Positions 10,003 to 27,446 of a stretch of 64,000 bases of DNA are shown here, in pieces (position 1 is the stretch's first letter; each line of letters begins with the position of its first letter). Source of the stretch: Clostridia bacterium. GTDB taxonomy: Bacteria > Bacillota > Clostridia > Christensenellales > UBA3700. A program made the position numbers and the translations under genes. The DNA lies in the NCBI GenBank assembly GCA_029068165.1, contig JAIEDA010000018.1:3076-67075 (forward strand). Reading direction: 5' to 3'. The notes under the pieces were generated by a model. The model ran no database searches. It had not been told where the DNA came from and saw only the letters and a program-made list of their open reading frames with translations.

Positions 10003-10115
10003 GAAAATGCAGGGATTTTTTGGCATTAATTTATTTATTGACTTTTGTGGAATCTTGTAGTAAGATGTAATAAAATATATTAAGATATATTTGTAAAGAT
10101 GGAGTTTTGAGAAAA

Positions 10116-10772
10116 ATGGCTACTAGAAAAGACGAAAGGCCCGCAGCAGGTCGCAAAGCGCCCGCTGCGAAAAACGCGACTTCGAGAAGCGCCGCTTCAA
10201 GCAAGTCGAAAACGACTACGGTACATTACAACAAAACCGAGGGAAAGAAAATGTCGCGAAAAGAAAAGAAGATTGAGAAAAAACTGGCTAAGTTCAACGA
10301 AAGAGATTTAAGAAGCTATCCTATGACCGTAGGAAAGTGGATAGGTACGTACATACTCTTGGCGATACCTCTTGTAAACGTTATTTGCTGTATTTGTTGG
10401 TTCTTCGGCGCAGGCAACAAGAGCAGGGCGGCGTGGATTCGTTCGCACGTCGTAAGATTTTTGATTATCATACTATTGATAGTCGCAATCATAGGCTCGG
10501 GTTGGTTGGTGCTCAAAAATCAAGCGAGCAAGAACGCCGGCGCGGAAACGCCTCAGGAAATTGCGTTCTACGGCGTTGAGCAAATTGCCGACCTAATCGG
10601 CGGTATTGCAGGCGAAGAAACGGCTGATATGATAAAAGCAATGTTTGCTGAGATGCTTGGTATTCCTTATGAAAGCGAAAACGGCGGAGAAAACGGCGGC
10701 GGTAATGGCGACGAAAACGTTTTTGAGGGCAATTTGGGCGACGAGGGCGACCAAGGCTACGAGTGGAACTAA
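10116..10772 (+). CDS. hypothetical membrane protein (basic N-terminus, 2 TM segments, acidic Gly/Asn/Glu tail)
   Basis: ATG 10116 with GGAG at 10101-10104 is preferred over TTG 10107. TM helices are WIGTYILLAIPLVNVICCICWFF and FLIIILLIVAIIGSGWLVL. A terminator follows. Confidence 0.65.
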   Translation: MATRKDERPAAGRKAPAAKNATSRSAASSKSKTTTVHYNKTEGKKMSRKEKKIEKKLAKFNERDLRSYPMTVGKWIGTYILLAIPLVNVICCICWFFGAGNKSRAAWIRSHVVRFLIIILLIVAIIGSGWLVLKNQASKNAGAETPQEIAFYGVEQIADLIGGIAGEETADMIKAMFAEMLGIPYESENGGENGGGNGDENVFEGNLGDEGDQGYEWN

Positions 10773-14309: not shown

Positions 14310-15593
14310 TTAATTATATTTTTTATCAAGGAGCGCAATTACTTCCTTAACGACTTCAAAGCTCTTTTCCAAAGTATCTATTCTAAGGTTATCCATTCCG
14401 TCTTTGGTGGTGTGGTAGTAGTCGGTGGGGCGAGGGTCTTGCGCGTTGAGCGTAACCGTCTTAAAGCCGAACTTTGCAAAAGCGGTGGAGTCGCTTCCTC
14501 CGACCGGATTTTCAATTAGGTGCGACTGTAGTCCGCAGTTGTCAATAGCTTGCTTGGAAATTTCGATAAGCTCTTTATCGAAAGGAACAAACTGAAGCGA
14601 GTCTTTGGTTACTACGTTGAAGTGATCCATATCTCTAAAGGAATCGAGGTTTATTGCGTAAGTGTTTTCGTTGAACAAGTTTTTATCGTCTTTGTGAGCT
14701 TTGACGAAAGCGAGCGCGCCTACTAGACCGCTTTCTTCCGCGCCCGTGCCGAGCACGATAAACTGCGCGTCTTTAGCGATTTCGCTTTCTTCCTCGGCGA
14801 AGTGCTTTGCCACTTCTATAGCCGTAGCTACGCCGCTTAAGTTGTCCATTGCGCCCGGAGCGGCTATTTTCTTATCATAGGACATATATCCCACTAGGAA
14901 CGAAAATCCGGGGAGACAAATCAGCGGCAAGCAGTAGAATACGAGTAACGCTACGTCAAGACCGCTCTTAGAGCTGCCCGTGATATTTGCGAAAATTCTT
15001 TGCAAAGCCATAAAGGAAATAGAATGTCCGGCTTTTGCTTCAAGAATGACGCTTACCAGCGAAACTACCAACAAAATTATTACGCTTACCACGCCGATAG
15101 CCGTTTTTATAATCATAGTGTTAGCGTTTTTGAGAGAATGCATCCAACACCAACTGCTATCCATATGCGCGCTGAGCATAACGTTATACTTAGCTTTTCC
15201 CGACTTGGGCGGTATCACCGCGTAAACGTTTTGCGATTCGTCTTTGGGGAAGAGAAAGTCTAGCATATGCGAGTAGTAGAAGATATGCGTAAGCGCAAAG
15301 AAGAGCAAAAGCGCCGTACCTATCAAAGATACGATAGGCGAGAGGTAGAACAAGACGAAGCAAGCGAAACTTGCCCAGCCAAGCCACGGAATAGCGCTGA
15401 TACAAGCATGCCTAGGCGTCTTGAATTTTTCAGTGACGGGAGTCGCGTTGAGTTCCCTCTTGATTTGGTCGGCTACTATCTTAGCGCCGAGTTTTTCTTC
15501 TTCGCTGCCGGGAAGTCGGGGACCCGTTACGTCGACGACTTCTTTGACAAGGTCGTAAATTTTTTGCCCTTTCGGGTACTGCGTGTTTTCCAT
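14310..15593 (-). CDS. M28-family metallopeptidase with internal transmembrane segments
   Basis: LSAHMDSSW and GTGAEESGLVGA (M28 metal-ligand motifs). Several hydrophobic helices lie between the two halves. Confidence 0.7.
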   Translation of the reverse strand: MENTQYPKGQKIYDLVKEVVDVTGPRLPGSEEEKLGAKIVADQIKRELNATPVTEKFKTPRHACISAIPWLGWASFACFVLFYLSPIVSLIGTALLLFFALTHIFYYSHMLDFLFPKDESQNVYAVIPPKSGKAKYNVMLSAHMDSSWCWMHSLKNANTMIIKTAIGVVSVIILLVVSLVSVILEAKAGHSISFMALQRIFANITGSSKSGLDVALLVFYCLPLICLPGFSFLVGYMSYDKKIAAPGAMDNLSGVATAIEVAKHFAEEESEIAKDAQFIVLGTGAEESGLVGALAFVKAHKDDKNLFNENTYAINLDSFRDMDHFNVVTKDSLQFVPFDKELIEISKQAIDNCGLQSHLIENPVGGSDSTAFAKFGFKTVTLNAQDPRPTDYYHTTKDGMDNLRIDTLEKSFEVVKEVIALLDKKYN

Positions 15594-15783
15594 ATTGACC
15601 TCTCAATTTTTAAGTAGTTTTATTATATCATATTTTATGCCCGATTTACAAACGAAAACCATTTAATTCACAAAATTTCTAAGTTCGTAAATTAATGTAT
15701 TTTTTCTTGACTTTTGTCAATTAAAAATTTTCAAAAATCGGTAAAATTTACTTAAAATATTACGGCGCATATAAAAAACGATA

Positions 15784-15813
15784 TTGACAACTATCTATTA
15801 AATGTGTTAAAAT
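15784..15813 (+). promoter_or_regulatory. promoter of the aminotransferase gene
   Basis: TTGACA (15784-15789), an 18-nt spacer with TGt, then TAAAAT (15808-15813). Confidence 0.55.
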
Positions 15814-15859
15814 TTAATCGTGAAACTTTAACGAAAAGTTTATAATCAAGGAGGCAATT

Positions 15860-17512
15860 ATGAAAGTAACGTATACCGAATTACCCGGTAAAGCAGAAGC
15901 AGGCTACGGCATCACCCGTTGGCCGAACGCGCAGGAGATAAACCAAAGTCTTAAGGAACTCACGGACAAGAATATCTATTCCGTACCTAGAGATACTTAC
16001 GCTGATATTTGCGCAACCTATTACGACGGAAAGTGCGCTAAGTCCAAGGAGATTACTACTGAAGCGAAGAAGTATATCCCCGGCGGCGTTCAACACAACT
16101 TGGCGTTCAACAAGCCGTTCCCTATGTGTATGGTCAAAGCCGACGGCGCTTATCTTACGGACCTTGACGGCAATCAATATATTGACTTTTTGCAGGCCGG
16201 CGGTCCGACTATCTTGGGCAGCAACTACAAGGGCGTTCAGGAAGAGGCTATTAAGCTAATCAAAGATTGCGGTCCTGTTACGGGTCTTTTCCACGAAGCC
16301 GAGCTTTTGATAGCTAAGGAAATCAACAAGCATATGCCGAGCGTAGAGATGTTTAGAATGTTGGGTTCGGGTACCGAATCGGTTATGGCGGCTCTCCGTA
16401 TCGCAAGATGTCAAACTAAGAATAAGAGAATCATCAAAATCGGCGGCGCATACCACGGTTGGTCGGATCAAATGGTATACGGACTTAAAGTTCCGGGCAC
16501 AAGACAGTATCTCGAATCTTTCGGTATTCCTAATACGATCTTCAGCGTAGTAGACGAAATAATGCCCAACAACCTCGATATGCTCGAAGATTATCTCAAG
16601 ACAAACAAGAGAAAGGGCGGCACGGCTGCCGTTATCGTAGAGCCGGTAGGACCTGAATCGGGTACTCGCCCAGTAGATATCGACTACAACGCAAAGGCTT
16701 TGGAGCTTGCTCACAAGTACGGCGCGCTCTTCATCTTCGACGAAGTAGTTACCGGCTTTAGAGTAGGCCTTGGCGGCGCTCAAGGCTTCTTCGGAGTTAA
16801 ACCCGACCTTACCATATTCGGTAAAATCGTTGCCGGCGGTTATCCTGCGGCAGGCGGCGTAGGCGGTAAGAGAGAATACGTATCCCTACTCGCGGCAGGC
16901 GTTGCGGGCGGAGCTAAGAAAGCGTACTGCGGCGGTACTTTGGCTGCAAATCCGCTCTCGGCTATGGCAGGTTACGTGGCTATCAAGAAGATAGAAGAAA
17001 CCAACGCTTGCGTGAAAGCAGGTTTGGCGGGCAATAGACTTACCGACGGTTTGGTATCTTTGATCGAACAATACAATTTGCCTTACGTTGCTTACAACCA
17101 AGGCTCTATCGTTCACCTAGAATGTACGGGCGCAATGAGCTACGACTTCTCGTCCAAACACTTGCTCAGCTCGCTTTTAAGAGTGCTCAAGAAAAAGGAT
17201 ATGATTATGGTAAGAAAAGAGGCTATGGAGCACATGGGCGCGGCTTATATGGCTAACGGTATCGTTACGCTTGCAGGTTCCCGTCTTTACACTTCTATGG
17301 CTGATACCGACGAGATCATCGACGAAGCTCTCAATAAGTTTGAGGACGTATTCAAGCTCGTTAAGGTAAGAGATAGGAGTATGGACGTACAAGTTGCCGA
17401 GTACAAGATAAACAAGGCAAAGTCCACCAACAATCAAAAGAAACTCGCTAAAGCGGAGAAGATGCTTGCAAAGGCTACTGCCGCTGAAGAAAAGAGCAAA
17501 CAACAAAAATAA
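15860..17512 (+). CDS. class-III PLP aminotransferase (glutamate-1-semialdehyde-aminomutase-like) with N- and C-terminal extensions
   Basis: YIPGGVQHN, GSGTES, FDEVVTGFR and IFGKIVAGGYP (putative PLP Lys). About 45-50 extra residues precede the IPGG motif. A 48-aa Lys/Ala/Glu-rich tail follows the domain. Confidence 0.8.
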   Translation: MKVTYTELPGKAEAGYGITRWPNAQEINQSLKELTDKNIYSVPRDTYADICATYYDGKCAKSKEITTEAKKYIPGGVQHNLAFNKPFPMCMVKADGAYLTDLDGNQYIDFLQAGGPTILGSNYKGVQEEAIKLIKDCGPVTGLFHEAELLIAKEINKHMPSVEMFRMLGSGTESVMAALRIARCQTKNKRIIKIGGAYHGWSDQMVYGLKVPGTRQYLESFGIPNTIFSVVDEIMPNNLDMLEDYLKTNKRKGGTAAVIVEPVGPESGTRPVDIDYNAKALELAHKYGALFIFDEVVTGFRVGLGGAQGFFGVKPDLTIFGKIVAGGYPAAGGVGGKREYVSLLAAGVAGGAKKAYCGGTLAANPLSAMAGYVAIKKIEETNACVKAGLAGNRLTDGLVSLIEQYNLPYVAYNQGSIVHLECTGAMSYDFSSKHLLSSLLRVLKKKDMIMVRKEAMEHMGAAYMANGIVTLAGSRLYTSMADTDEIIDEALNKFEDVFKLVKVRDRSMDVQVAEYKINKAKSTNNQKKLAKAEKMLAKATAAEEKSKQQK

Positions 17513-17543
17513 GTAAAATGAGTTTTCACTTGAAAAAACGCTA

Positions 17544-17569
17544 TCGGTTGCGACTTCGTTCGCAACCGA
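17544..17569 (+). terminator. strong hairpin after the aminotransferase gene (no adjacent U-tract)
   Basis: A perfect 10-bp stem, TCGGTTGCGA-cttcgt-TCGCAACCGA. The TTTTT run comes only 11 nt later. Confidence 0.4.
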
Positions 17570-17668
17570 GTTTGAGCGGTTTTTGAGGGTGGAAACCTTT
17601 TTGCGTTTATAAGAACGTAAATTTATCTTACGGTATAGCCTATATAATAGGCGAAGAATGAGGATTTT

Positions 17669-19201
17669 ATGAAATACATAATGGCGCACGATATGGGTAC
17701 GAGTTCCGACAAGGCGGTGCTTATAGACTTTGAGGGTAATATAGTAGCATCGAAAGCGGTGGCTTATCCCACGTATTATCCTGCGCCGGCTTTTGTCGAG
17801 CAAGAGCCGAGCGAATATTGGGATGCGGTTTGTCTTGCTTCAAAGACTATCATCGAACAAACGGGTATTGACCCGAGCGACGTCGAAGGCGTGGTATTTT
17901 CCACTCAAGCGATGGGAATCATACCCGTTGACGTCAACGGCAAGGTTTTGCACCCCAACATTACTTGGGTAGACGGAAGAGCGGAAAAGCAAGCGCAAAC
18001 TTTGATGAAGAAAGTAGGCGGCAAGAAGATATTTACGCTCGTGTCGGGCACTCCGATTATGGGCAAAGACGTAGTATCAAAAATTCAGTGGTTGAGAGAG
18101 GAACGTCCTGACGTTTACAACAATACCAAGTACTTCCTTGACGTAAACGGATTTTTGAAATACAAATGTACGGGAGTTATGGTAGCTGAGCGTTCAGGCG
18201 CGTCGAGTTATGGACTTGATCTCAAGAAAAAGACTTGGCTGGGAGCTTTGAAACTTATCGGCATCGATATGTCCAAACTTCCTCCGCTCGTCAACTCCAC
18301 CGATAAGATAGGCAACGGACTTACAAAAGAAGCCGCCGAGAAAATGGGACTTAACGAGGGTACTGCGGTATTCGGAGGTTGCGACGACACGCAAGCCGCG
18401 GCTATCGGCAGCGGTATGAACGGCGACGGTGAGATCCACATCTATTTGGGTACTTCGGCGTGGGTTGCCGCTACAAGCAGGAACAAGACCAAATTCAAGC
18501 ACGGCGCGGCGGCTATACAGTCGGCTGACCCCGAGATGAATTTGATTTGCGGTATAACCGAAGCGGCGGGTAGCAATATCCAATGGGTATGCGACCAATT
18601 CTTCGCAACTGAGCAAAAGGAACTCGGCGAGGGTATTTACGCGTATATGGATAAAGTTATCGAGTCAATTCCCGCAGGTTCCGATCACTTGATATGTACG
18701 CCTTGGATGTTGGGAGAGAGATGTCCCGTATCGTCCACGACTACGAGAGCTACGCTTTGGAACGTAACCCCGAGCCACACAAGAGAGCATATAATGAGAG
18801 CTCTTTACGAAGGTATCGGCTACAACCTAAGATGGATACTCGAGAATTTTAGAAAAGATTACAAATTCCATAGCAGACAGTTTAGAATTATCGGCGGCGG
18901 AGCGTTGGACGACGCTTGGATGCAAATAATCGCCGACATAACGGGAAGCGAGTTTGCAATCGTGCAAAATCCTCGTAACGCAGGCGCGCTCGGCGCGGCT
19001 ATAATAGCGTTGATAGGACTTGGCGAACTTAAGAGCTTTGCCGACGCGAAGAACTTCGTCGTCGAGAGCAAGAAGTATAGACCCAACCCCAAAAACAAGT
19101 ATATTTACGACGAACTCTTTAAGAGCTACAAACAAATATACTACAGCTTAGAAAAGACTTATAGAAAAGCAAATTCCAAGAGATTTGAAGGAGAAGAGTA
19201 A
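17669..19201 (+). CDS. FGGY-family carbohydrate kinase (xylulokinase-like)
   Basis: 510 aa with N-terminal AHDMGTSSDKAVL and GGGALDDAWMQIIADITG (FGGY C-terminal signature). Confidence 0.8.
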   Translation: MKYIMAHDMGTSSDKAVLIDFEGNIVASKAVAYPTYYPAPAFVEQEPSEYWDAVCLASKTIIEQTGIDPSDVEGVVFSTQAMGIIPVDVNGKVLHPNITWVDGRAEKQAQTLMKKVGGKKIFTLVSGTPIMGKDVVSKIQWLREERPDVYNNTKYFLDVNGFLKYKCTGVMVAERSGASSYGLDLKKKTWLGALKLIGIDMSKLPPLVNSTDKIGNGLTKEAAEKMGLNEGTAVFGGCDDTQAAAIGSGMNGDGEIHIYLGTSAWVAATSRNKTKFKHGAAAIQSADPEMNLICGITEAAGSNIQWVCDQFFATEQKELGEGIYAYMDKVIESIPAGSDHLICTPWMLGERCPVSSTTTRATLWNVTPSHTREHIMRALYEGIGYNLRWILENFRKDYKFHSRQFRIIGGGALDDAWMQIIADITGSEFAIVQNPRNAGALGAAIIALIGLGELKSFADAKNFVVESKKYRPNPKNKYIYDELFKSYKQIYYSLEKTYRKANSKRFEGEE

Positions 19202-19869
19202 TGAATAAGACCGTCCAAACAATTTTAGAGTACGCTCAAAGACTCGTAGACGAAAACGTGGTCAGCGAAAGCGATATGATAAGTATGAGATCGGAACTCA
19301 ACTTTATGTATATCACTAAAGCCGGCGCAAAACTTCGCGAGCTCACTGAAGACGACGTTATAAAGCTCAATATATTCAAGGTTGATAACGAATATAAGTA
19401 TCACGCCGAAATATATAAGGAAAGAGAAGATATCAACGCTATATGTCAATGCTACCCCAAATGGGTAATGCCTATTGCAAAAGCGGGCGTAACCATTCCC
19501 GCAGTACTTGACGATATGGCGCAAATCGTAGGACCGACTTGCAAGACGTCGGCGGACGATATAAAGTCTATAATCAAGACTTTGAAGGGAAGAAATTCCT
19601 GTCTAGTAAAGGACAAGGGCTGCATTACTTCGGGTCGTACGCTCGACGAGGCTTATACTTGCGTACTCGTACTGGATAAGGCGAGCCACTGTTTCGTTGC
19701 AAGCAGCGTTATCGGCGAGAATAAGATAATCAACGGCTTTGAAGCAAGACTTATGAGATTTATTTATAAGACCAAATACAGCAAGAAAAATCAAGAAAAC
19801 CTCTCCGCTAAGGAAGAGGGCGAAAAAGTAAGCGAAGAACTTCCTGCCAAGGAAGAAGGCGAGGTGTAA
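19201..19869 (+). CDS. class-II aldolase/adducin-fold protein lacking the canonical catalytic residues
   Basis: Length and overall pattern parallel the next gene. However GN is replaced by SESDMIS, TPTG by ITKAG, HxH by CQCYP and NHG by KDKG. The start overlaps the kinase stop (TAATG). Confidence 0.6.
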   Translation: MNKTVQTILEYAQRLVDENVVSESDMISMRSELNFMYITKAGAKLRELTEDDVIKLNIFKVDNEYKYHAEIYKEREDINAICQCYPKWVMPIAKAGVTIPAVLDDMAQIVGPTCKTSADDIKSIIKTLKGRNSCLVKDKGCITSGRTLDEAYTCVLVLDKASHCFVASSVIGENKIINGFEARLMRFIYKTKYSKKNQENLSAKEEGEKVSEELPAKEEGEV

Positions 19870-19870
19870 A

Positions 19871-20545
19871 ATGGCTTGGGATAAAGAAACCGAACTCAAA
19901 CTTAGACAGGTAATCAAGGATAGCGGCGTTGCGCTTCTCAACGAAAACCTCGTGCAAGGCACTTGGGGCAACACGGCTGTAAGACTGGACGAGGACCATA
20001 TGTTGGTTACGCCGACGGGTCTTGACTATATCGCGCTTACTCCTGAGGATATGCCAGTAGTACAAATCAGCGATCCGTCGATTTGGAGCGACGGTAAGAA
20101 ACCGACCAGCGAGAGAAAGATTCACGCCGCAATAATGCAAGCTAGACCTGAAATCAACGCTACGATACACTCGCACCCGATTTTTTGTTCGATACTCGCT
20201 TCGGCTAGAATCGAGTTGCCGGTTATGAACGACGAAATGCAAAAACTCGTTGGCGGACCTTGCAGGGTCGGCGCTTACGGTTTGCCGGGCACCAAGAAAC
20301 TCAAAGAGGGCACCGTCGCGGCTATGCAGGGACGTAACGCTTGCTTTATGGCAAACCACGGCGTATTTTGCGCGGGCAAGGATATGGACGAAGCGTTTGA
20401 AATCATTAGAATTATGGAAAAGAGCTGTTATCAGTATATACAAGAGTGTACGCTCAAGGCTACGGGTCAGTCTACTTACAGCGACGAGCTTCTCTTTGAC
20501 TATTTTGTAGCTCAAAAGACAGCTCCGAAAGGCAAAAAGAAGTAA
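19871..20545 (+). CDS. class-II aldolase (fuculose-phosphate-aldolase family), canonical
   Basis: GTWGNTAV, VTPTG, TSERKIH, IHSHP and MANHG: all phosphate-binding and Zn/acid-base motifs are present. Confidence 0.8.
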   Translation: MAWDKETELKLRQVIKDSGVALLNENLVQGTWGNTAVRLDEDHMLVTPTGLDYIALTPEDMPVVQISDPSIWSDGKKPTSERKIHAAIMQARPEINATIHSHPIFCSILASARIELPVMNDEMQKLVGGPCRVGAYGLPGTKKLKEGTVAAMQGRNACFMANHGVFCAGKDMDEAFEIIRIMEKSCYQYIQECTLKATGQSTYSDELLFDYFVAQKTAPKGKKK

Positions 20546-20955
20546 TGAACGATTTTCCGATACTTAGCGATACTTTAAGTACAAAACAAGCGCGAGAGTT
20601 AAATCCTCTCGTGCTTGCCTATATCGGGGACGGAGCGCATACGCTTTACGTCCGCACGAAAGAGGTTAGAAATTCCACCGCCAAGGCGGACAAACTGCAC
20701 GTTCGCGTAACCTCTCAAGTAAAAGCCTCGGCGCAAGCGAAGCATTTGGAAGCTATCCGTCCGCTTTTCAACGAAGAAGAAGAGGGGATTTTTTTACGGG
20801 CGAGAAATTCGCACCAACACTCCACGGCTAAAAACGCAAGCTTAGCCGACTATAAGAGCGCGACGGGCTTTGAAGCTGTGTTGGGATTTCTTTATTTGAC
20901 AGGTCAAACCGAGCGATTAACTTTTCTACTCAATTACGTGACCGACTGCGTATAA
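20545..20955 (+). CDS. mrnC: Mini-ribonuclease 3
   Basis: 136 aa with LAYIGDGAHTLYVR and SATGFEAVLGFLYL. Confidence 0.85.
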   Translation: MNDFPILSDTLSTKQARELNPLVLAYIGDGAHTLYVRTKEVRNSTAKADKLHVRVTSQVKASAQAKHLEAIRPLFNEEEEGIFLRARNSHQHSTAKNASLADYKSATGFEAVLGFLYLTGQTERLTFLLNYVTDCV

Positions 20956-20974
20956 CGGTTCGTTTTCAGCCTGC

Positions 20975-21000
20975 TTAATCGAGCGAAGTTGAAATATCTC
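20975..21000 (+). repeat. copy (3' half) of the dispersed intergenic repeat
   Basis: TTAATCGAGCGAAGTTGAAATATCTC, followed by TTGAGCGATAAATTTCGC. Confidence 0.6.
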
Positions 21001-21093
21001 TTGAGCGATAAATTTCGCAGTCGGTTGACAAATCATATATTATCAATTAAACTATTAATTACTACGCGCTAACAAATTAATACGGAGGACATT

Positions 21094-21852
21094 ATGCCAC
21101 AGGTCAAACCGAGCGTTACGCTCCTTGAATATACGCCCAACCCCGAGAGGACGGTTGCGCTTGCGGCGAAGCTATGCTACAGCGACGCCACGATCGAGAA
21201 TTTGCAGGAGGGACTTGATAAGAGCGATATTACGAAGTTTATCGAAAGACTTCGCTCGTTTGGTCACGCTTCGCCGTTTGAACACGCTAGTTTTACCTTT
21301 GGAATCGAGGGCGTTTCGAGAAGTTTGCTCGCGCAAATTACTAGACATAGAATAGCTTCGTTCAGCGTTAAGTCGCAGCGTTACGTTGCCGCTAACAAGA
21401 AAGACGATACTTTTAATTACGTTATACCCGAGGCTATCGAGGCTTTGGGCGAAGAGGCGATAGAGAAATTCAAATCGCAAATGGCGCAAATGCACGAATG
21501 GTATACCGATTGGCAAACGCAGCTTGGCGGCGCGTGCGAGAAGTCCAACGAGGACGCTAGGTTTGTGCTTCCCAACGCGGCGGAAACGAAAATGGTCGTC
21601 ACGATGAACGCGCGCTCGCTTATGAACTTCTTCCACTTAAGATGCTGCAACAGGGCGCAATGGGAAATCAGGGAAGTTGCTTGGCAAATGCTCGAGTTGG
21701 TACTCAAAGTCGCGCCGAGTATCTTCGGCAACTGCGGAGCTTCGTGCGTATCGGGTCCTTGTACCGAGGGCAAGATGTCTTGCGGCAAGGTAGCCGAAGT
21801 CAGGGCAAAACAAAAAGCTCTCGTAGAAAAGACGACAAAAGATGCAAAGTGA
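21094..21852 (+). CDS. thyX: FAD-dependent thymidylate synthase
   Basis: ThyX signature TRHRIASFSVKSQRY. SD GGAGGA. Confidence 0.95.
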   Translation: MPQVKPSVTLLEYTPNPERTVALAAKLCYSDATIENLQEGLDKSDITKFIERLRSFGHASPFEHASFTFGIEGVSRSLLAQITRHRIASFSVKSQRYVAANKKDDTFNYVIPEAIEALGEEAIEKFKSQMAQMHEWYTDWQTQLGGACEKSNEDARFVLPNAAETKMVVTMNARSLMNFFHLRCCNRAQWEIREVAWQMLELVLKVAPSIFGNCGASCVSGPCTEGKMSCGKVAEVRAKQKALVEKTTKDAK

Positions 21853-22399
21853 AATTGATTTGATAAAAGCTTTTCGCGGCGGCGATAAGCGGGCGGTTGA
21901 ATACCTTATGGAAAGCTACAAGGGCGTAGTCAACAAAATCGCCAGAGTAATGTACGTCAAAGGCGGCGACCGCGACGACGTGGTGCAGGAAGGTATGATC
22001 GCTCTCTATAATGCGATAGTTACTTACGACATAGCCAGTAAAGTGAGTTTTTCCACGTACGCAACCGAATGTATAAAAAATAGGATATTGGACTGTATGC
22101 GCAGCGGCAACAGGCTTAAGAACAAGGCGCTGTCCGAAAGCTTGCCTATTACGTCGCTCGACGATATAAATATCACGGGGCTTTCCCCCGAAGAAATAGC
22201 GATAAGCGCCGAGGAAGTAGACGCGTTGAGAAGCGTTATTGACGAGAAACTCACCAAAGACGAAATTAAAATACTCGACTTGTACTACGAGGGAATGTCG
22301 TACGCGGAAATCGCCCAAACTTTGGACAAAAATACTAAGTATGTCGACAACGCGTTGCAAAGGATACGCCGAAAAATAAGACTCAACGTCAGGATGTAA
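21842..22399 (+). CDS. sigH: sigma-70 family sigma factor, SigH-like
   Basis: GDKRAVEYLMESYKGVV...DRDDVVQEGMIALYNAI...SFSTYATECIKNRI and a C-terminal HTH (MSYAEIAQTL). mrnC/rlmB neighbourhood as in Bacillus sigH. It overlaps thyX by 11 nt. Confidence 0.75.
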   Translation: MQSEIDLIKAFRGGDKRAVEYLMESYKGVVNKIARVMYVKGGDRDDVVQEGMIALYNAIVTYDIASKVSFSTYATECIKNRILDCMRSGNRLKNKALSESLPITSLDDINITGLSPEEIAISAEEVDALRSVIDEKLTKDEIKILDLYYEGMSYAEIAQTLDKNTKYVDNALQRIRRKIRLNVRM

Positions 22400-22403
22400 A
22401 ATC

Positions 22404-22429
22404 GAGAGAAGTGTTTGCTTCTCTCTTTT
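22404..22429 (+). terminator. intrinsic terminator after sigH
   Basis: GAGAGAAG-tgtttg-CTTCTCTC followed by TTTT. Confidence 0.75.
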
Positions 22430-22535
22430 CATAGTCGAAATTCTCTTAATAAAAATCAAGCGATTAAATTAGCTTGAAATGAAGAATTAATTTATTAAAA
22501 ATACCTTTGAAGTTAAAGTAAAATACAGCTGTAAA

Positions 22536-23252
22536 TCAATTCCGTTGACGGGTGACTTCATAGCAAATTATTCCGCACGCAACCGAAGCGTTGAGCGAAT
22601 TGACTTTGCCGTATTGCGGTATGGAAATAACTCCGTTGCAAAGCTTGGAAGTAAGAGCTTTCACGCCGCTGCCTTCGTTGCCTATCACGACGGCTATATC
22701 TTCGTCTAGACGGCACTCTTTGGCAGGCGTTCCTTGCATATCGGCGGCGTAGATATTGACAAATTCGTCTTTGAGTTGGCGGAGAGTATCGTTGATGTTT
22801 CCCACCATTGCGACTTTGATATGATTAGCCGCGCCTGCGGAAGTACGCAAGACAGTCGCGTTTATATTTGCGCTTCTTCGCGAGGGAATAACCACGCCGT
22901 GCGCGCCCATACATTCGCCTACTCGCAAAATACTGCCGAGGTTGTGCGGATCCTCAATACCGTCGAGAATAAGCATAAAGAGTTTTTCCCCCTTTGATTT
23001 AGCGAAGTTGAGTATATCCTCAACGGTTGAATACTCAAAATCTTGCGCTATAGCGATTACGCCTTGGCAGCGTTTGCTTTCGCTTATTTTATCGAGGAAG
23101 TTTTTATCTACGAAGTCGATACGTATATTCTTTTTCCGCGCAACATCGATTATCGGCTGCAAATCGCGCGCAGCCTTAGACACGTAGAGTTTGGAAATTT
23201 TCTTATCCGAGTCAAGAGCTTCCTTGACGGGGTTCTTACCTTCAATATTCAT
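22536..23252 (-). CDS. rlmB: TrmH-family 23S rRNA 2'-O-methyltransferase (RlmB-like)
   Basis: 238 aa with an N-terminal EGKNPVKEAL and a SPOUT C-terminus (VIGNEGSGV...IPQYGKVNSLNASVA). Confidence 0.8.
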   Translation of the reverse strand: MNIEGKNPVKEALDSDKKISKLYVSKAARDLQPIIDVARKKNIRIDFVDKNFLDKISESKRCQGVIAIAQDFEYSTVEDILNFAKSKGEKLFMLILDGIEDPHNLGSILRVGECMGAHGVVIPSRRSANINATVLRTSAGAANHIKVAMVGNINDTLRQLKDEFVNIYAADMQGTPAKECRLDEDIAVVIGNEGSGVKALTSKLCNGVISIPQYGKVNSLNASVACGIICYEVTRQRN

Positions 23253-25751: not shown

Positions 25752-27410
25752 TTATACCCAAATTATATTGCTTATAAGAGTACCGTTTACGCTTATAAAG
25801 GATAGCTTTTTGACGTTTTTCCAATCTTTTAGAGGGACTCTCTTGTCCGTCTTGAAATCGTTGTGCGAAAGCGATATTTTTTGCCACTCTTTGCCCTTGA
25901 CGTCGATTTCCGCGCGGTAGTATTCATAATTGAATAGGGCTACTTCAATGCACATCTCCACGTATAATTTTCGCGGGGTATCGTTGTAGCAGTCAAATTG
26001 AAAGATACTGTTTTCGCCGTGCTCGTAGATTATATCGCTTATACTGTACGTAGAGAGGTTGCCTTTTTCGGCTGTTACGCCCATAATATCAAAAGCTCCG
26101 TTACGAAGTTCGGGCATAAAGTATTCGCCGTTGTTGTTGTCGACTATCCAAGCGTCGAGTCCTTTCTTGCGTTCGTATACTATATGCGAGCGTTTGAGCG
26201 GTATTCTCTCCATATCTAAGTTTTCCAAATCGAACATTATTGGCAGGGAAGAATAGCTTTGATTGTCCTTGTAGACTACCGAAACGTACGCGAAAATACG
26301 CATATCCTCATTGCGCAGCGGTATTTCTACAGTAGGATTGGCAAGCGAGAGTACGCGCCTGTTCCAATGACGAAGTTCGCTGTTTTTCTCGTTGTACGCG
26401 AAAAACATAACTATGCGGTCGATTTCAAAAGAGTTGTCTATTTCGGCTTTTGCGTACAGCTTTCCTTCGTTTGTTTCGAAAGCCGCAGTCGGAGGCTTGG
26501 GTTTCGCCGTATCGTAGTATACGCTGTCAAGCCATACCGCCATCGCGTCTTTTGCTCTAACGTCCATAGTGTTGGACAGGTTTGCGCACAGACAGGCGAG
26601 GTTGTTGCCTTTGTTATGCGTCAAAGCAAAGGTTTTGTCGACCCTGTCCACACTCGTAAAAGTGGAATTAGTACCTGAAATATAAAGCACGGGGCAGGTC
26701 ACGAACTTAGCGTAAGCCTGCGGCGAGCAAGCGCTTATCCACTTGAGCTTCTTTTCCGAGAAGTTAAATTCGTCGGGACTTTCGTCAAACCTGAATAATC
26801 TCCTGCTTTCCGACCAACCCGCGTTGTCCGAGGCGATAATGCCGTCCACGCGTTTGTCCATTCCCGCTACTTGCCAAAGTATATTTCCGCCTTCTAGCGA
26901 GGATAACATATAAATTTTCTCGTCTTCGCCAAGAAAAGTTTTCAAGAAAGTTATTACGTGACGGCACAACTGGCTCCATACGTACGCGCAAGAATCTTTG
27001 GGAGAGTTTACAAAACTCTTCAAGTGCTTTTCGCTGCGAGCCAAATTAGCGTAATCGTATTCTTTAGGATATAAAGTATATTTTTTCTTGCCTTCGCGCT
27101 CGCCTTTATAGTCGAAACATATTATCGAATAGCCCTTAGGCAGGAAAGTGTCCGTAACGTGACTGCTTAAATCCGTCGTATAGCCGTCGATATAAATCAA
27201 GGAGGCGTTTTTAGCGTTACGCTTTGGAATTTTACCGCGGCAGTATATGAGAGCTGAGCTATCGTCCTCAAAATCACAGTTCAAATAAACTTCAAAATCA
27301 ACGACGCCGTTTTCCGAGGTATCGTATTTTATGAAATTCGATTTGAGTTTTACCGCATTTGCGTCGTAATTTGCCCAAAGTTGATTGGGCGACATCAAAT
27401 TGTTTTCCAT
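25752..27410 (-). CDS. hypothetical protein, N-terminal half alpha/beta-hydrolase-like, C-terminal beta-rich domain
   Basis: A long ORF that leads a six-gene minus-strand operon. ATG 27410 lies 7 nt after a consensus -10 box. No GxSxG motif was found; SSLEGG sits where a nucleophile elbow would be expected. Confidence 0.55.
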   Translation of the reverse strand: MENNLMSPNQLWANYDANAVKLKSNFIKYDTSENGVVDFEVYLNCDFEDDSSALIYCRGKIPKRNAKNASLIYIDGYTTDLSSHVTDTFLPKGYSIICFDYKGEREGKKKYTLYPKEYDYANLARSEKHLKSFVNSPKDSCAYVWSQLCRHVITFLKTFLGEDEKIYMLSSLEGGNILWQVAGMDKRVDGIIASDNAGWSESRRLFRFDESPDEFNFSEKKLKWISACSPQAYAKFVTCPVLYISGTNSTFTSVDRVDKTFALTHNKGNNLACLCANLSNTMDVRAKDAMAVWLDSVYYDTAKPKPPTAAFETNEGKLYAKAEIDNSFEIDRIVMFFAYNEKNSELRHWNRRVLSLANPTVEIPLRNEDMRIFAYVSVVYKDNQSYSSLPIMFDLENLDMERIPLKRSHIVYERKKGLDAWIVDNNNGEYFMPELRNGAFDIMGVTAEKGNLSTYSISDIIYEHGENSIFQFDCYNDTPRKLYVEMCIEVALFNYEYYRAEIDVKGKEWQKISLSHNDFKTDKRVPLKDWKNVKKLSFISVNGTLISNIIWV

Positions 27411-27417
27411 ATAAATT

Positions 27418-27446
27418 ATTATAATCAATATCTTTATAAATTGCAA
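27418..27446 (-). promoter_or_regulatory. consensus promoter abutting the start codon (candidate leaderless transcript)
   Basis: On the minus strand, TTGCAA (27446-27441), a 17-nt spacer, TATAAT (27423-27418), then AATTTAT and ATG (27410). Confidence 0.55.

What the first reader, a model, noticed from the sequence alone, without database searches (positions are those of the whole stretch)
15860..20545. Unrecognised cassette: extended class-III aminotransferase + FGGY kinase + two class-II aldolase-fold proteins
Four same-strand genes make up the cassette. The first is a 550-aa PLP aminotransferase of the glutamate-1-semialdehyde-aminomutase type. It carries about 45-50 residues ahead of the IPGG motif and a 48-aa Lys/Ala/Glu-rich tail (…KAKSTNNQKKLAKAEKMLAKATAAEEKSKQQK), neither of which I associate with this family. 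The second is an FGGY sugar kinase, and the third and fourth are class-II aldolase-fold proteins. The kinase stop and the next start overlap (TAATG, 19199-19203), and the two aldolase-fold genes are 1 nt apart, so at least three genes are translationally coupled. A kinase plus a class-II aldolase is the 'phosphorylate then cleave' logic of the fuculose, ribulose and rhamnulose pathways. An adjacent aminotransferase would fit an amino-sugar or amino-polyol substrate (transaminate, phosphorylate, retro-aldol). I do not recognise this combination as a characterised pathway. One caveat applies: a 156-nt gap with a strong hairpin (17544-17569) separates the aminotransferase from the kinase, so co-transcription is uncertain.
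Basis: partly seen in the sequence, partly recalled or inferred. Interest (0 to 1): 0.6.

Follow-up and report, generated by a model that had tools for sequence, protein, structure and literature searches.

The report
Uncharacterised aminotransferase–kinase–aldolase catabolic cassette
Four adjacent genes form a real gene module, conserved across several bacterial phyla, that no one has characterised; it most likely removes the amino group from an amino-polyol, phosphorylates it and splits it, and the best candidate substrate is the phytosphingosine-type backbone of sphingolipids.

Summary
The window encodes a GSAM-like class-III aminotransferase (AT), an FGGY kinase and two class-II aldolase-fold proteins at the stated coordinates.

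- **Conservation:** AT sits beside the aldolase genes in 41 of 51 fully flanked species-level loci, in at least four gene orders.
- **Spread:** the module recurs in Actinomycetota, Spirochaetota and on a Burkholderia plasmid.
- **Fusions:** Aldolase–AT fusion proteins exist (at least 120 clusters). AldA–AldB fusions exist in both orders.
- **Aldolase pair:** AldB keeps every FucA catalytic and phosphate-binding residue. AldA has lost them but keeps one invariant Asp. This suggests a heteromeric aldolase.
- **No match to known systems:** no curated family or paper describes the cassette.

My best reading is transaminate, then 1-phosphorylate, then DHAP-type retro-aldol. That chemistry needs a 2-amino-1,3,4-triol. 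Several context clues point to 4-hydroxy sphingoid bases such as phytosphingosine:

- a neutral ceramidase lies next to the operon in Leptonema illini;
- ALDH3-like aldehyde dehydrogenases, TetR regulators and other amide hydrolases lie nearby in other lineages;
- the predicted (3R,4R) stereochemistry matches FucA.

The substrate is inferred, not shown.

The parts
14310..15593 (-). M28-family metallohydrolase with a multi-TM insertion. It is a recurrent neighbour of the cassette and a candidate N-deacylase. Its membership is uncertain.
   Evidence: Peptidase_M28 E=4.3e-24. Hydrophobic segments are visible in the translation. It is adjacent to AT in 19 of 80 genome loci, in either orientation, and in loci reached through AldA or AldB.
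15784..15813 (+). Sigma-70-type promoter-like site upstream of AT (TTGACA-18-TAAAAT with TG extension)
   Evidence: 11 of 12 matches, the best in the region. No TetR gene lies upstream here, unlike 38 of 80 related loci.
15860..17512 (+). GSAM-like class-III PLP aminotransferase (AT). It has a family-specific N-terminal subdomain (residues 1-70), an extra helix (435-465) and a clade-specific Lys/Ala/Glu helical tail (about 503-550).
   Evidence: Aminotran_3 E=4.6e-50. Best NCBIfam hit is GSAM at 280 bits, below the 398 cut-off. GSAM Arg32 is absent. K322 and D294 are invariant. AF2 model and Foldseek. At least 585 species-level relatives.
17525..17593 (+). Strong extended hairpin followed by a T-run: a terminator or attenuator-like element between AT and the kinase
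   Evidence: MFE -30 kcal/mol, z=-3.63. The core stem at 17544-17569 is flagged. Non-homologous GC hairpins lie at the same place in L004, L007, L011, L012 and L022. No Rfam family matches.
17669..19201 (+). FGGY-family kinase (type 1), xylulokinase-like but below the equivalog cut-off
   Evidence: FGGY_N and FGGY_C. XylB 322.7 bits versus cut-off 380. 68-93% identical orthologues lie in cassette-bearing loci. In L035 and L103 it is replaced by a 30%-identical FGGY type 2.
19201..19869 (+). AldA: a degenerate class-II aldolase-fold protein, probably a non-catalytic partner subunit that supplies an invariant Asp (LDDMAQ motif)
   Evidence: Aldolase_II at only 64.5 bits. The phosphate pocket is lost, and His92/His94/His155 are lost in this clade. 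Asp occupies the FucA Tyr113 position in 61 of 62 sequences. It is fused to AldB in both orders.
19871..20545 (+). AldB: catalytic FucA-like class-II (metal-dependent, DHAP-type) aldolase subunit
   Evidence: Aldolase_II 149.5 bits. N29, T/S43, G44, S/T71, E73, H92, H94 and H155 are invariant in 44 orthologues. Best PDB hits are FucA 4c24 and DrdA 6btd.
20545..20955 (+). Mini-RNase III gene (mrnC), translationally coupled to AldB. It is a co-transcribed housekeeping passenger, not part of the pathway.
   Evidence: Ribonuclease_3 E=3.2e-15. TAATG overlap at 20543-20547. The same AldB-mrnC adjacency is seen in L004, L022, L024, L094 and metagenome loci. thyX downstream has its own promoter-like site at 21025.

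Best explanation
The cassette is a catabolic or detoxifying module for a primary amine whose head group is a 2-amino-1,3,4-triol.

Proposed steps (all inferred):
1. The GSAM-like aminotransferase converts C2-NH2 to a ketone, giving a 1,3,4-trihydroxy-2-one, that is, a ketose-like head.
2. The FGGY kinase phosphorylates C1-OH.
3. A heteromeric class-II aldolase cleaves C3-C4 to dihydroxyacetone phosphate plus an aldehyde. AldB supplies the metal, the phosphate pocket and the catalytic Glu. AldA supplies an invariant Asp in trans.

The most likely natural substrates are 4-hydroxy sphingoid bases (phytosphingosine type). These would be freed from ceramides by a neighbouring amide hydrolase and would yield DHAP plus a long-chain fatty aldehyde (pentadecanal from t18:0). 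Where AT occurs alone with a TetR regulator, deamination alone would neutralise the toxic cationic lipid.

What is shown: gene content, catalytic-residue patterns, cross-phylum synteny and the fusions. What is inferred: the order of the steps, the heteromer and the substrate.

I put the generic transaminate-phosphorylate-cleave logic at about 0.55 and the sphingoid-base assignment at about 0.35-0.4.
For: **Functional linkage**
- AT is next to Ald genes in 58 of 80 species-level loci, and in 41 of 51 loci with at least 4 kb of flank on both sides. At least four gene orders occur.
- Reciprocal searches starting from AldA and AldB always recover AT when enough upstream DNA is present.
- The triad recurs in four further groups:
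  - Thermoleophilia.
  - An Acidimicrobiales MAG, as TetR-[Ald-AT]-FGGY with a 4-nt overlap.
  - Leptonema illini.
  - A conjugative Burkholderia ambifaria plasmid.
- Aldolase_II-Aminotran_3 fusion proteins exist, in at least 120 clusters.

**Heteromeric aldolase**
- AldA-AldB fusions of 415-450 aa and AldB plus AldA C-terminal half fusions of 299-345 aa both exist.
- AldB keeps all FucA metal, phosphate and Glu residues (44 of 44). AldA loses them but keeps Asp at the FucA Tyr113' position (61 of 62).

**Direction (amine to carbonyl) and N-acylated precursor**
Different amide hydrolases flank the module in different lineages:
- a neutral ceramidase lipoprotein, 214 bp away and divergent from the operon, in Leptonema;
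- a CE4 de-N-acetylase in Thermoleophilia;
- a membrane M28 hydrolase in Christensenellales;
- an amidase-signature enzyme about 6 kb away in Burkholderia.

**Hydrophobic aldehyde product**
- ALDHs of the same MdlD/ALDH3-like type lie in or near the operon in L054/L061, B. ambifaria and Butyrivibrio.
- An Fe-ADH lies next to AT in L070.
- TetR regulators are present in 38 of 80 loci.
- Small membrane proteins are embedded in the operon: GtrA-like in 16 loci and DUF202.

**Chemistry (established knowledge plus inference)**
- DHAP-type aldolases need C3-OH and C4-OH, so the amine must be a 2-amino-1,3,4-triol.
- D-ribo-phytosphingosine (2S,3S,4R) becomes (3R,4R) after C2 oxidation. That is the stereochemistry of FucA, which is AldB's closest relative.

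**Not already explained**
- All NCBIfam hits are below their cut-offs.
- Ten literature searches found no description.
- PMC11893366 states that the product of bacterial sphingosine metabolism is unknown.
Against: - No biochemical or genetic data exist.
- FGGY kinases and FucA-family aldolases are known only with small polar sugars. Both kinase types score best against xylulokinase.
- AT, the kinase and the aldolases look like ordinary soluble enzymes with no lipid-binding feature.
- The ceramidase neighbour was seen in a single lineage.
- In some Christensenellales the module is followed by a true GPH glycoside symporter and lies near GH20 and other glycosidase genes, which hints at a polar substrate.
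- In the window clade there is no regulator. The kinase-aldolase genes are translationally coupled to a housekeeping RNase gene, which is unusual for an inducible catabolic route.
- A direct Aldolase-AT fusion suggests consecutive steps, whereas this model places the kinase between them.
- A 43%-identical family member sits behind a reductase-terminated NRPS, where it probably aminates an aldehyde.
- Common sphinganine and sphingosine lack the C4-OH that the aldolase step requires.
Confidence: 0.4

Rival explanations
1. The enzyme logic is the same (deacylate, transaminate, phosphorylate, retro-aldol), but the substrate is a small polar amino-polyol or amino-sugar derivative, for example a 2-amino-2-deoxy-alditol or an amino sugar acid released from N-acetylated glycans. 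It is not a lipid.
For: - Both FGGY types are closest to xylulokinase and gluconokinase.
- A bona fide GPH glycoside symporter follows AT-AldA-AldB (302 bits, above the 231 cut-off). GH20, a GDE_C-like glycosidase and a Gfo/Idh/MocA oxidoreductase lie upstream in five or six loci.
- A CE4 NodB-type de-N-acetylase lies next to the fusion in Thermoleophilia.
- An NSS-type transporter lies next to AT in L083 and L085.
- The enzymes look soluble.
Against: - To my knowledge, no abundant natural polar 2-amino-1,3,4-triol is known.
- The neutral ceramidase neighbour, the ALDH3/MdlD-type aldehyde dehydrogenases, the TetR regulators and the lipid-metabolism surroundings in Leptonema fit a hydrophobic substrate better.
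- The glycosidase genes are separated from AT by a 1250-aa surface-protein gene.
Confidence: 0.2
2. The order is reversed. A ketose is phosphorylated by the FGGY kinase and cleaved by the aldolase, and the aminotransferase then aminates the released aldehyde (retro-aldol then transaminate, as in guanitoxin GntG/GntE). The product is an amino alcohol or amine that is exported or used.
For: - Aldolase-AT fusion proteins suggest consecutive steps and channelling of a reactive aldehyde.
- AT's best characterised relatives after GSAM include GntE, an aldehyde transaminase (223 bits).
- A 43%-identical member follows a reductase-terminated NRPS.
- AT stays 50-70% identical while the kinases and aldolases diverge to about 30%. 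This would fit a common small aldehyde.
- A second GSAM/GntE-like AT lies next to a split transketolase in L042, L051 and L087.
Against: - An ALDH encoded in the same operon (B. ambifaria), or next to AT (L054, L061), would compete for the same aldehyde.
- Amide hydrolases flanking the module imply that a free amine is the input, not the output.
- No isomerase is present to make a ketose from a common aldose.
- TetR-AT pairs occur without any aldolase in 10 of 51 loci.
Confidence: 0.15
3. The module runs in the biosynthetic direction. The aldolase condenses DHAP with an aldehyde, AT aminates C2, and the product is an aminotriol (a sphingoid-like base or amino-polyol) made without serine palmitoyltransferase, for the cell envelope.
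For: - In the window clade expression looks constitutive: a strong promoter, no regulator, and coupling to mrnC.
- GtrA-like and DUF202 membrane proteins are embedded in the operon.
- A published claim that the clostridial species Flavonifractor plautii produces phytosphingosine comes with no genetic basis (PMC11914097).
Against: - A kinase has no obvious role in this direction.
- The TetR-repressed, IS-flanked, plasmid-borne copies with an ALDH look catabolic.
- The ceramidase neighbour is a degradative enzyme.
- Whether F. plautii carries the module could not be checked.
Confidence: 0.07
4. The adjacency is fortuitous. The kinase and aldolases form an ordinary pentose or deoxy-sugar pathway, and the aminotransferase is an unrelated HemL-like enzyme.
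For: - A terminator-like hairpin separates AT from the kinase in the window clade.
- AT occurs alone in some genomes.
- The kinase is missing from some loci (L107, and the AT-AldA-AldB loci without a kinase).
Against: - Synteny holds across four phyla and several gene orders.
- AT-FGGY gaps are only 13-24 nt, and 4-nt overlaps occur elsewhere.
- Covalent Aldolase-AT fusions exist.
- AT fails the HemL cut-offs and lacks Arg32.
- No isomerase for a fucose, rhamnose or arabinose route is present.
Confidence: 0.03

Closest known systems
L-fucose / L-rhamnose catabolism (FucI-FucK-FucA; RhaA-RhaB-RhaD)
   Same: An FGGY kinase is followed by a class-II metal-dependent aldolase of the FucA fold. The logic is phosphorylate then cleave, giving DHAP plus an aldehyde. 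AldB keeps all FucA catalytic and phosphate-binding residues. In some loci the aldehyde is handled by an ALDH or Fe-ADH.
   Different: There is no isomerase. A GSAM-like aminotransferase takes its place, so the ketose-like intermediate would come from an amine. The aldolase is a two-gene (or fused) heteromer with a degenerate subunit. FucA Tyr113 is replaced by Asp/Glu. All scores fall below the equivalog cut-offs.
Glutamate-1-semialdehyde 2,1-aminomutase (HemL)
   Same: It is the closest sequence and fold relative of AT (280 bits; Foldseek TM about 0.8). The PLP lysine, the Asp and the SGTE phosphate loop are conserved.
   Different: AT scores below the cut-offs (263 versus 527 for TIGR00713). 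It lacks the substrate-carboxylate Arg32. It has a roughly 47-residue ordered N-terminal subdomain and an extra helix. Its genomic partners are kinases and aldolases, not heme genes.
DHAP shunt / 5-deoxyribose disposal (MtnK/DrdK, MtnA/DrdI, Ald2/DrdA)
   Same: A class-II FucA-fold aldolase releases DHAP plus an aldehyde. DrdA (6btd) is nearly as close to AldB as FucA is. In the window clade the genomic setting looks housekeeping.
   Different: The kinase is FGGY rather than MtnK-type. There is no MtnA-type isomerase. An aminotransferase is present.
Eukaryotic sphingoid-base degradation (sphingosine kinase, S1P lyase, ALDH3A2)
   Same: The proposed overall outcome is the same: phosphorylation at C1, PLP chemistry at C2, C-C cleavage that releases a fatty aldehyde, and oxidation of that aldehyde by an ALDH3-type enzyme. 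A ceramidase lies upstream in Leptonema.
   Different: The enzymes are unrelated, and the cleaved bond differs (C3-C4 by a metal aldolase rather than C2-C3 by a PLP lyase). The products would be DHAP plus a C15 aldehyde rather than phosphoethanolamine plus a C16 aldehyde. A 4-hydroxyl is required.
Fumonisin detoxification (FumD esterase, FumI class-III aminotransferase) and P. aeruginosa sphBCD
   Same: These are bacterial systems that neutralise sphingoid-like amines. From my own knowledge, FumI is a class-III aminotransferase that deaminates a 2-amino polyol lipid. The sph genes metabolise sphingosine, sphinganine and phytosphingosine to an unknown product (PMC11893366).
   Different: Those systems have no kinase or aldolase step. 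sphBCD encodes a periplasmic oxidase, a cytochrome c and a PLP aldolase, which are different families. Homology of AT to FumI was not tested here.

Membership tests
Class-III (fold type I) PLP aminotransferases, Pfam PF00202 | Significant match to Aminotran_3 with a conserved Schiff-base Lys and a PLP-binding Asp | tested here: met
   170.9 bits against a cut-off of 30.5. K322 and D294 are invariant in 34 homologues. Foldseek matches GSAM, D-PhgAT and omega-TA.
Glutamate-1-semialdehyde 2,1-aminomutase (HemL) | Score above the curated equivalog or subfamily cut-offs | tested here: not met
   TIGR00713: 263 versus 527.3. NF000818: 280.3 versus 398.
Glutamate-1-semialdehyde 2,1-aminomutase (HemL) | Arg in the PGGVNSPVRAF motif that binds the substrate carboxylate (Arg32 in Synechococcus numbering, from my own knowledge) | tested here: not met
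   The window has PGGVQHNLAF, which is invariant in the family.
FGGY carbohydrate kinases | Both FGGY_N and FGGY_C domains at full length | tested here: met
   171.4 and 100.4 bits, with profiles covered end to end.
Xylulokinase XylB (equivalog) | Score above the TIGR01312 cut-off | tested here: not met
   322.7 versus 380.25. The type 2 kinase scores 298.5.
L-fuculose-1-phosphate aldolase (FucA) | Zn triad His92/His94/His155, catalytic Glu73 and the phosphate pocket Asn29/Thr43/Gly44/Ser71-72 | tested here: met
   For AldB, all are invariant or conservatively substituted in 44 orthologues. AldA fails every one in the window clade.
L-fuculose-1-phosphate aldolase (FucA) | Tyr113' from the neighbouring subunit, and a score above the equivalog cut-off | tested here: not met
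   That position is Asp/Glu in AldB (30 of 44) and Asp in AldA (61 of 62). TIGR01086: 85.3 versus 400. NF005302: 115 versus 264.
Fucose/rhamnose/arabinose-type operons | An aldose-ketose isomerase gene (FucI, RhaA or AraA) accompanies the kinase and the aldolase or epimerase | tested here: not met
   No isomerase is present in the window neighbourhood or in any of the related loci inspected.
DHAP shunt (MtnK-MtnA-Ald2) | An MtnK-type kinase and an MtnA-type isomerase next to the aldolase | tested here: not met
   The kinase is FGGY and there is no MtnA-like gene.
Proposed heteromeric AldA/AldB aldolase | Physical association of the two gene products | not testable with these tools
   Support is indirect only: fusions in both orders and complementary residue conservation. 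Multimer modelling was not available.
Sphingoid-base catabolic system (proposed) | Enzymatic activity on phytosphingosine and its derivatives | not testable with these tools
   Context only: ceramidase, ALDH3-like enzymes, TetR regulators, and stereochemical reasoning.

The most novel reading that the evidence does not exclude
This is the first described bacterial route for complete breakdown of 4-hydroxy sphingoid bases (phytosphingosine). It is oxygen-independent and widespread in gut and rumen Clostridia, and it also occurs in soil Actinomycetota, Leptonema and Burkholderia.

The proposed steps are ceramide deacylation, C2 transamination, C1 phosphorylation by an FGGY kinase acting on a lipid, and C3-C4 cleavage by an obligate heteromeric FucA-like aldolase. 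The products are DHAP plus an odd-chain fatty aldehyde.

A sibling module (a second GSAM-like aminotransferase plus a split transketolase) would handle 4-deoxy bases. AT alone would act as a TetR-controlled detoxifier of antimicrobial sphingoid bases.
Probability: 0.33. Interest if true: 0.85.

Novelty: new variant of a known kind. Interest (0 to 1): 0.7.

Why it matters
- **Scale of the gap:** the aminotransferase family has relatives in at least 585 species-level genomes, mostly uncultured gut and rumen Clostridia. With its kinase and aldolase partners it spans four phyla, yet it has no assigned function. That is a sizeable gap in gut-microbiome metabolism.
- **If the sphingoid-base reading is right:** it would explain how anaerobic gut bacteria remove and feed on dietary, host and Bacteroidota sphingolipid backbones. 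These compounds are antimicrobial and bioactive in the host. How bacteria metabolise them is an acknowledged open question (PMC11893366).
- **New enzymology that would follow:** FGGY kinases and FucA-type aldolases acting on lipids.
- **Independent of the substrate:** the AldA/AldB pair would be an unusual heteromeric class-II aldolase with one catalytic subunit and one degenerate subunit. Aldolase-aminotransferase fusion proteins have not been described.
- **Testability:** cultured carriers exist, namely Burkholderia ambifaria CF3, Leptonema illini DSM 21528 and Butyrivibrio fibrisolvens D1.

Tried and rejected
**Searches that gave nothing useful**
- Rfam scan of 15400-21200 for a riboswitch or leader in the AT-kinase gap: nothing found.
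- Ten full-text literature searches for the gene combination, for heteromeric class-II aldolases and for bacterial sphingoid or aminopolyol catabolism. None described the cassette. The methionine-salvage review had nothing relevant.
- PDB sequence searches for the unknown proteins of the neighbouring AT2/transketolase module: no hits.
- Pfam and NCBIfam on several conserved unknown neighbours (the 431-457 aa protein after the GPH symporter; the 138, 387 and 278 aa proteins near the AT2/transketolase module): nothing except a borderline SCP2 hit.

**Functions considered and set aside**
- True HemL: below cut-offs and no Arg32.
- Methionine salvage or 5-deoxyribose disposal: wrong kinase type and no isomerase.
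- AI-2/Lsr-type processing: the LsrK model is only the third-best hit, and there is no LsrF or LsrG.
- OtnK/OtnC-type acid-sugar routes: weak hit.
- Ethanolamine or aminopropanol assimilation by aldol addition: the kinase would have no role.
- Sphinganine or sphingosine as aldolase substrates: they lack the C4-OH needed for a DHAP-type retro-aldol.

**Adjacencies seen in one lineage only and treated as probably coincidental**
- RACo/enoate-reductase/AOR genes next to AT in L001-3.
- The LMW-phosphatase and fructosamine-kinase pair upstream of the Acidimicrobiales operon.

**Not possible with these tools**
- Multimer modelling of AldA/AldB.
- Checking whether Flavonifractor plautii carries the module.

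Full report
**1. The observation**

- AT, 15860-17512: Aminotran_3, E=4.6e-50.
- Kinase, 17669-19201: FGGY_N plus FGGY_C.
- AldA, 19201-19869: Aldolase_II, only 64.5 bits.
- AldB, 19871-20545: Aldolase_II, 149.5 bits.

No curated NCBIfam model claims any of them. AT scores 280 bits against GSAM (cut-off 398). The kinase scores 322.7 against XylB (cut-off 380). AldB scores 115 against a FucA model (cut-off 264).

The junctions are as described: TAATG at 19199-19203 and a 1-nt spacer between AldA and AldB. thyX downstream has its own promoter-like site.

A near-consensus promoter (TTGACA-18-TAAAAT) precedes AT. The hairpin after AT is strong (-30 kcal/mol, z=-3.6). No Rfam family matches the gap.

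**2. The aminotransferase family**

AT has very many close relatives: 70-92% identity among the best 120 protein clusters and at least 585 species-level genome hits. The nearest are Christensenellaceae and other Clostridia MAGs from gut and rumen.

- The roughly 47 residues ahead of IPGG are a conserved family feature (Y16, W21, I27, L31 and L34 are nearly invariant). They are modelled as an ordered subdomain, together with an extra helix at 435-465.
- The Lys/Ala/Glu tail occurs only in the TetR-less, window-type loci, with one exception (L076). Its sequence varies but its composition is constant, and it is modelled as two long helices.
- AT keeps the PLP machinery (K322, D294, SGTE). The GSAM motif PGGVNSPVRAF is replaced by an invariant PGGVQHNLAF, so the Arg that binds the glutamate-semialdehyde carboxylate is lost. 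It is therefore not HemL.
- Fold comparison gives GSAM, D-phenylglycine aminotransferase and omega-transaminases at TM about 0.8.

**3. Synteny**

In 80 species-representative loci fetched through AT:

| Neighbour | Loci (of 80) |
|---|---|
| Ald gene within 6 kb, same strand | 58 |
| FGGY kinase | 46 |
| TetR regulator | 38 |
| GtrA-like membrane protein | 16 |
| M28 hydrolase | 19 |

Of the 51 loci with at least 4 kb on both sides, 41 have Ald, 34 have the kinase and 10 have neither (TetR-AT only).

Architectures seen:
- (a) [M28] AT-FGGY1-AldA-AldB-mrnC, the window type.
- (b) [TetR] AT-AldA-AldB, sometimes followed by a GPH symporter.
- (c) TetR-FGGY2-Ald(fused)-GtrA-AT, in Lachnospiraceae and others.
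- (d) TetR-AT alone.

L035 and L103 have the window-type cassette but carry the other FGGY type (about 30% identical), so the two kinases are interchangeable. L107 has no kinase.

Searches that started from AldA and from AldB in metagenomes found AT upstream whenever enough DNA was available.

The hairpin after AT recurs at the same position in close relatives, but with unrelated sequences. In other lineages the AT-kinase gap is only 13-24 nt.

**4. The two aldolase-fold proteins**

- The 44 AldB-type sequences keep Asn29, Thr/Ser43, Gly44, Ser/Thr71, Glu73, His92, His94 and His155 without exception.
- The 62 AldA-type sequences have lost the phosphate pocket and never have His155.
- In the window clade AldA has also lost His92 and His94 (CQCY in place of VHNH).
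- AldA carries Asp at the position of FucA Tyr113 in 61 of 62 sequences (LDDMAQ motif).

In FucA-family tetramers this residue reaches into the neighbouring subunit's active site, and in the related L-ribulose-5-phosphate 4-epimerase (AraD) the equivalent residue is a catalytic Asp (both points from my own knowledge).

Natural fusions exist in both orders: full AldA-AldB proteins of 415-450 aa in six loci, and AldB plus only the C-terminal half of AldA (299-345 aa) in the type (c) loci.

I infer an obligate heteromer. AldB provides the metal, the phosphate site and the Glu. AldA provides the trans-acting acid/base.

**5. Beyond Clostridia**

An exhaustive representative search showed that the family, N-terminal extension included, continues down to about 32-45% identity. 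It also revealed Aldolase_II-Aminotran_3 fusion proteins. At least 120 clusters of these exist, annotated as Thermoleophilia.

Contexts:

| Lineage | Arrangement |
|---|---|
| Thermoleophilia | DUF202-[Ald-AT]-CE4 de-N-acetylase, with FGGY and MFS a few kb downstream |
| Acidimicrobiales MAG | TetR-[Ald-AT]-FGGY with a 4-nt overlap |
| Leptonema illini DSM 21528 | Neutral ceramidase lipoprotein, divergent and 214 bp from FGGY-AldB-AT(56%)-AldA-MFS, amid thiolase, acyltransferase and MaoC genes |
| Burkholderia ambifaria CF3, conjugative plasmid | TetR divergent from FGGY-AldB-AT-AldA(annotated hypothetical)-SDR-ALDH, flanked by IS5 |
| Butyrivibrio fibrisolvens pNP243 | FGGY-Ald-GtrA-AT |

AT is 50-57% identical across phyla, whereas the kinases and aldolases are about 30%.

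**6. Mechanism**

AldB retains the DHAP-type phosphate pocket and enediolate machinery, so the aldolase substrate should be a ketose-1-phosphate-like molecule with C3-OH and C4-OH.

Several observations favour the amine-to-carbonyl direction and an N-acylated, hydrophobic precursor:
- Four different amide hydrolases flank the module in four lineages: neutral ceramidase, CE4, membrane M28 and an amidase-signature enzyme.
- ALDHs of one and the same MdlD/ALDH3-like type lie in or next to the operon in three lineages. An Fe-ADH does so in another.
- TetR regulators are common.
- Small membrane proteins are embedded in the operon.

The only abundant natural 2-amino-1,3,4-triols I know of are 4-hydroxy sphingoid bases. 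D-ribo-phytosphingosine (2S,3S,4R) becomes (3R,4R) once C2 is a ketone. That is the D-erythro configuration made and cleaved by FucA, AldB's nearest relative (inference from established stereochemistry).

The products would be DHAP and pentadecanal. TetR-AT alone would detoxify the cationic lipid.

The habitats of the carriers all contain such lipids: gut and rumen (plant, fungal, host and Bacteroidota sphingolipids), soil and rhizosphere. Leptonema illini belongs to a family I know as fatty-acid specialists.

The literature I could search describes no such pathway. It states that the product of bacterial sphingosine metabolism is unknown (PMC11893366).

**7. Caveats and rivals**

Nothing here is biochemical.
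- FGGY kinases and FucA-type aldolases are known only with polar sugars.
- The enzymes look soluble.
- The ceramidase neighbour is a single lineage.
- One clostridial group places a true GPH glycoside symporter after the module, with glycosidases nearby.
- The Aldolase-AT fusion, AT's resemblance to GntE, and a 43%-identical relative behind a reductase-terminated NRPS keep alive the reverse order, in which the aldolase comes first and AT aminates the aldehyde.
- In the window clade the absence of a regulator and the coupling to mrnC suggest constitutive expression.

I therefore put the generic transaminate-phosphorylate-cleave logic at about 0.55 and the sphingoid-base assignment at about 0.35-0.4.

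**8. Verdict**

It is a new variant of the kinase plus class-II-aldolase pathways, with good experimental handles in cultured carriers.

Noticed in passing
L042:18435-20679, L051 (about 18700-21400), L087:10456-15357: A second module lies a few kb from the TetR-AT-FGGY-AldA-AldB cluster in three Oscillospirales/Lachnospirales loci. It contains another GSAM/GntE-like aminotransferase (426-429 aa), a split transketolase and unknown proteins, one of which gives a borderline SCP2 lipid-carrier hit (21.1 bits against a cut-off of 21.3). It could cleave the ketol made from 4-deoxy sphingoid bases, but this is speculative.
   Followed up: partly
window 20543-20955: The mini-RNase III gene overlaps the AldB stop codon (TAATG). 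A housekeeping rRNA-maturation gene is therefore translationally coupled to the metabolic genes. The same arrangement is seen in L004, L022, L024 and L094.
   Followed up: yes
window 14310-15593 (-): The M28 metallohydrolase has several hydrophobic, TM-like segments inserted between its N-terminal part and its catalytic domain. It travels with the cassette in Christensenellales in either orientation. Its function is unknown.
   Followed up: partly
L124/L125:6807-8191: In an Acidimicrobiales MAG, a low-MW phosphatase and a fructosamine-kinase-family gene lie immediately upstream of TetR-[Ald-AT]-FGGY. From my own knowledge, this pair is known for ketoamine deglycation. It was seen in one lineage only.
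   Followed up: no
P0336, P0369 (distant AT relatives); L128:3479-9266: Other fusions occur in more distant GSAM-like relatives: a Prok-JAB domain fused to AT and an NAD_binding_7 domain fused to AT. A 43%-identical member with the same N-terminal extension sits directly after an NRPS ending in a reductase domain, where it probably aminates a released aldehyde.
   Followed up: no
L130 (Burkholderia ambifaria CF3 plas1 54674-76104); L131 (Butyrivibrio fibrisolvens pNP243): The module is mobile. In Burkholderia it is flanked by IS5 elements on a conjugative plasmid. In Butyrivibrio it sits next to an IS66 insertion on a 243-kb plasmid or chromid.
   Followed up: partly
window 17366-17509 and 19780-19866; P0241 residues about 205-270: The basic Lys/Ala/Glu helical tail of AT and the acidic Glu-rich tail of AldA occur in the same clade. 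The linker of the Thermoleophilia Aldolase-AT fusion has a similar Ala/Glu/Lys/Arg-rich composition. The tails may be docking elements between AT and the aldolase. This was not tested.
   Followed up: no
window 21842-23252: The sigH-like gene overlaps the end of thyX by 11 nt. The rlmB-type methyltransferase lies on the opposite strand, whereas relatives (L004, L094) have thyX-rlmB-sigH all co-directional. This is a local rearrangement.
   Followed up: no
window 10107-10772 (+) and 25752-27446 (-): Two sizeable ORFs (221 aa and 564 aa) have no Pfam hit. The 564-aa ORF is conserved next to the signal peptidase gene in related loci (L007, L035).
   Followed up: no
L001-L003:9618-15560: In one Oscillospirales lineage, TetR-AT is followed by a RACo-like activator, an enoate-reductase-type flavoprotein, a ferredoxin and an aldehyde:ferredoxin oxidoreductase. 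This was not seen in any of the 80 genome loci, so it may be coincidental.
   Followed up: partly
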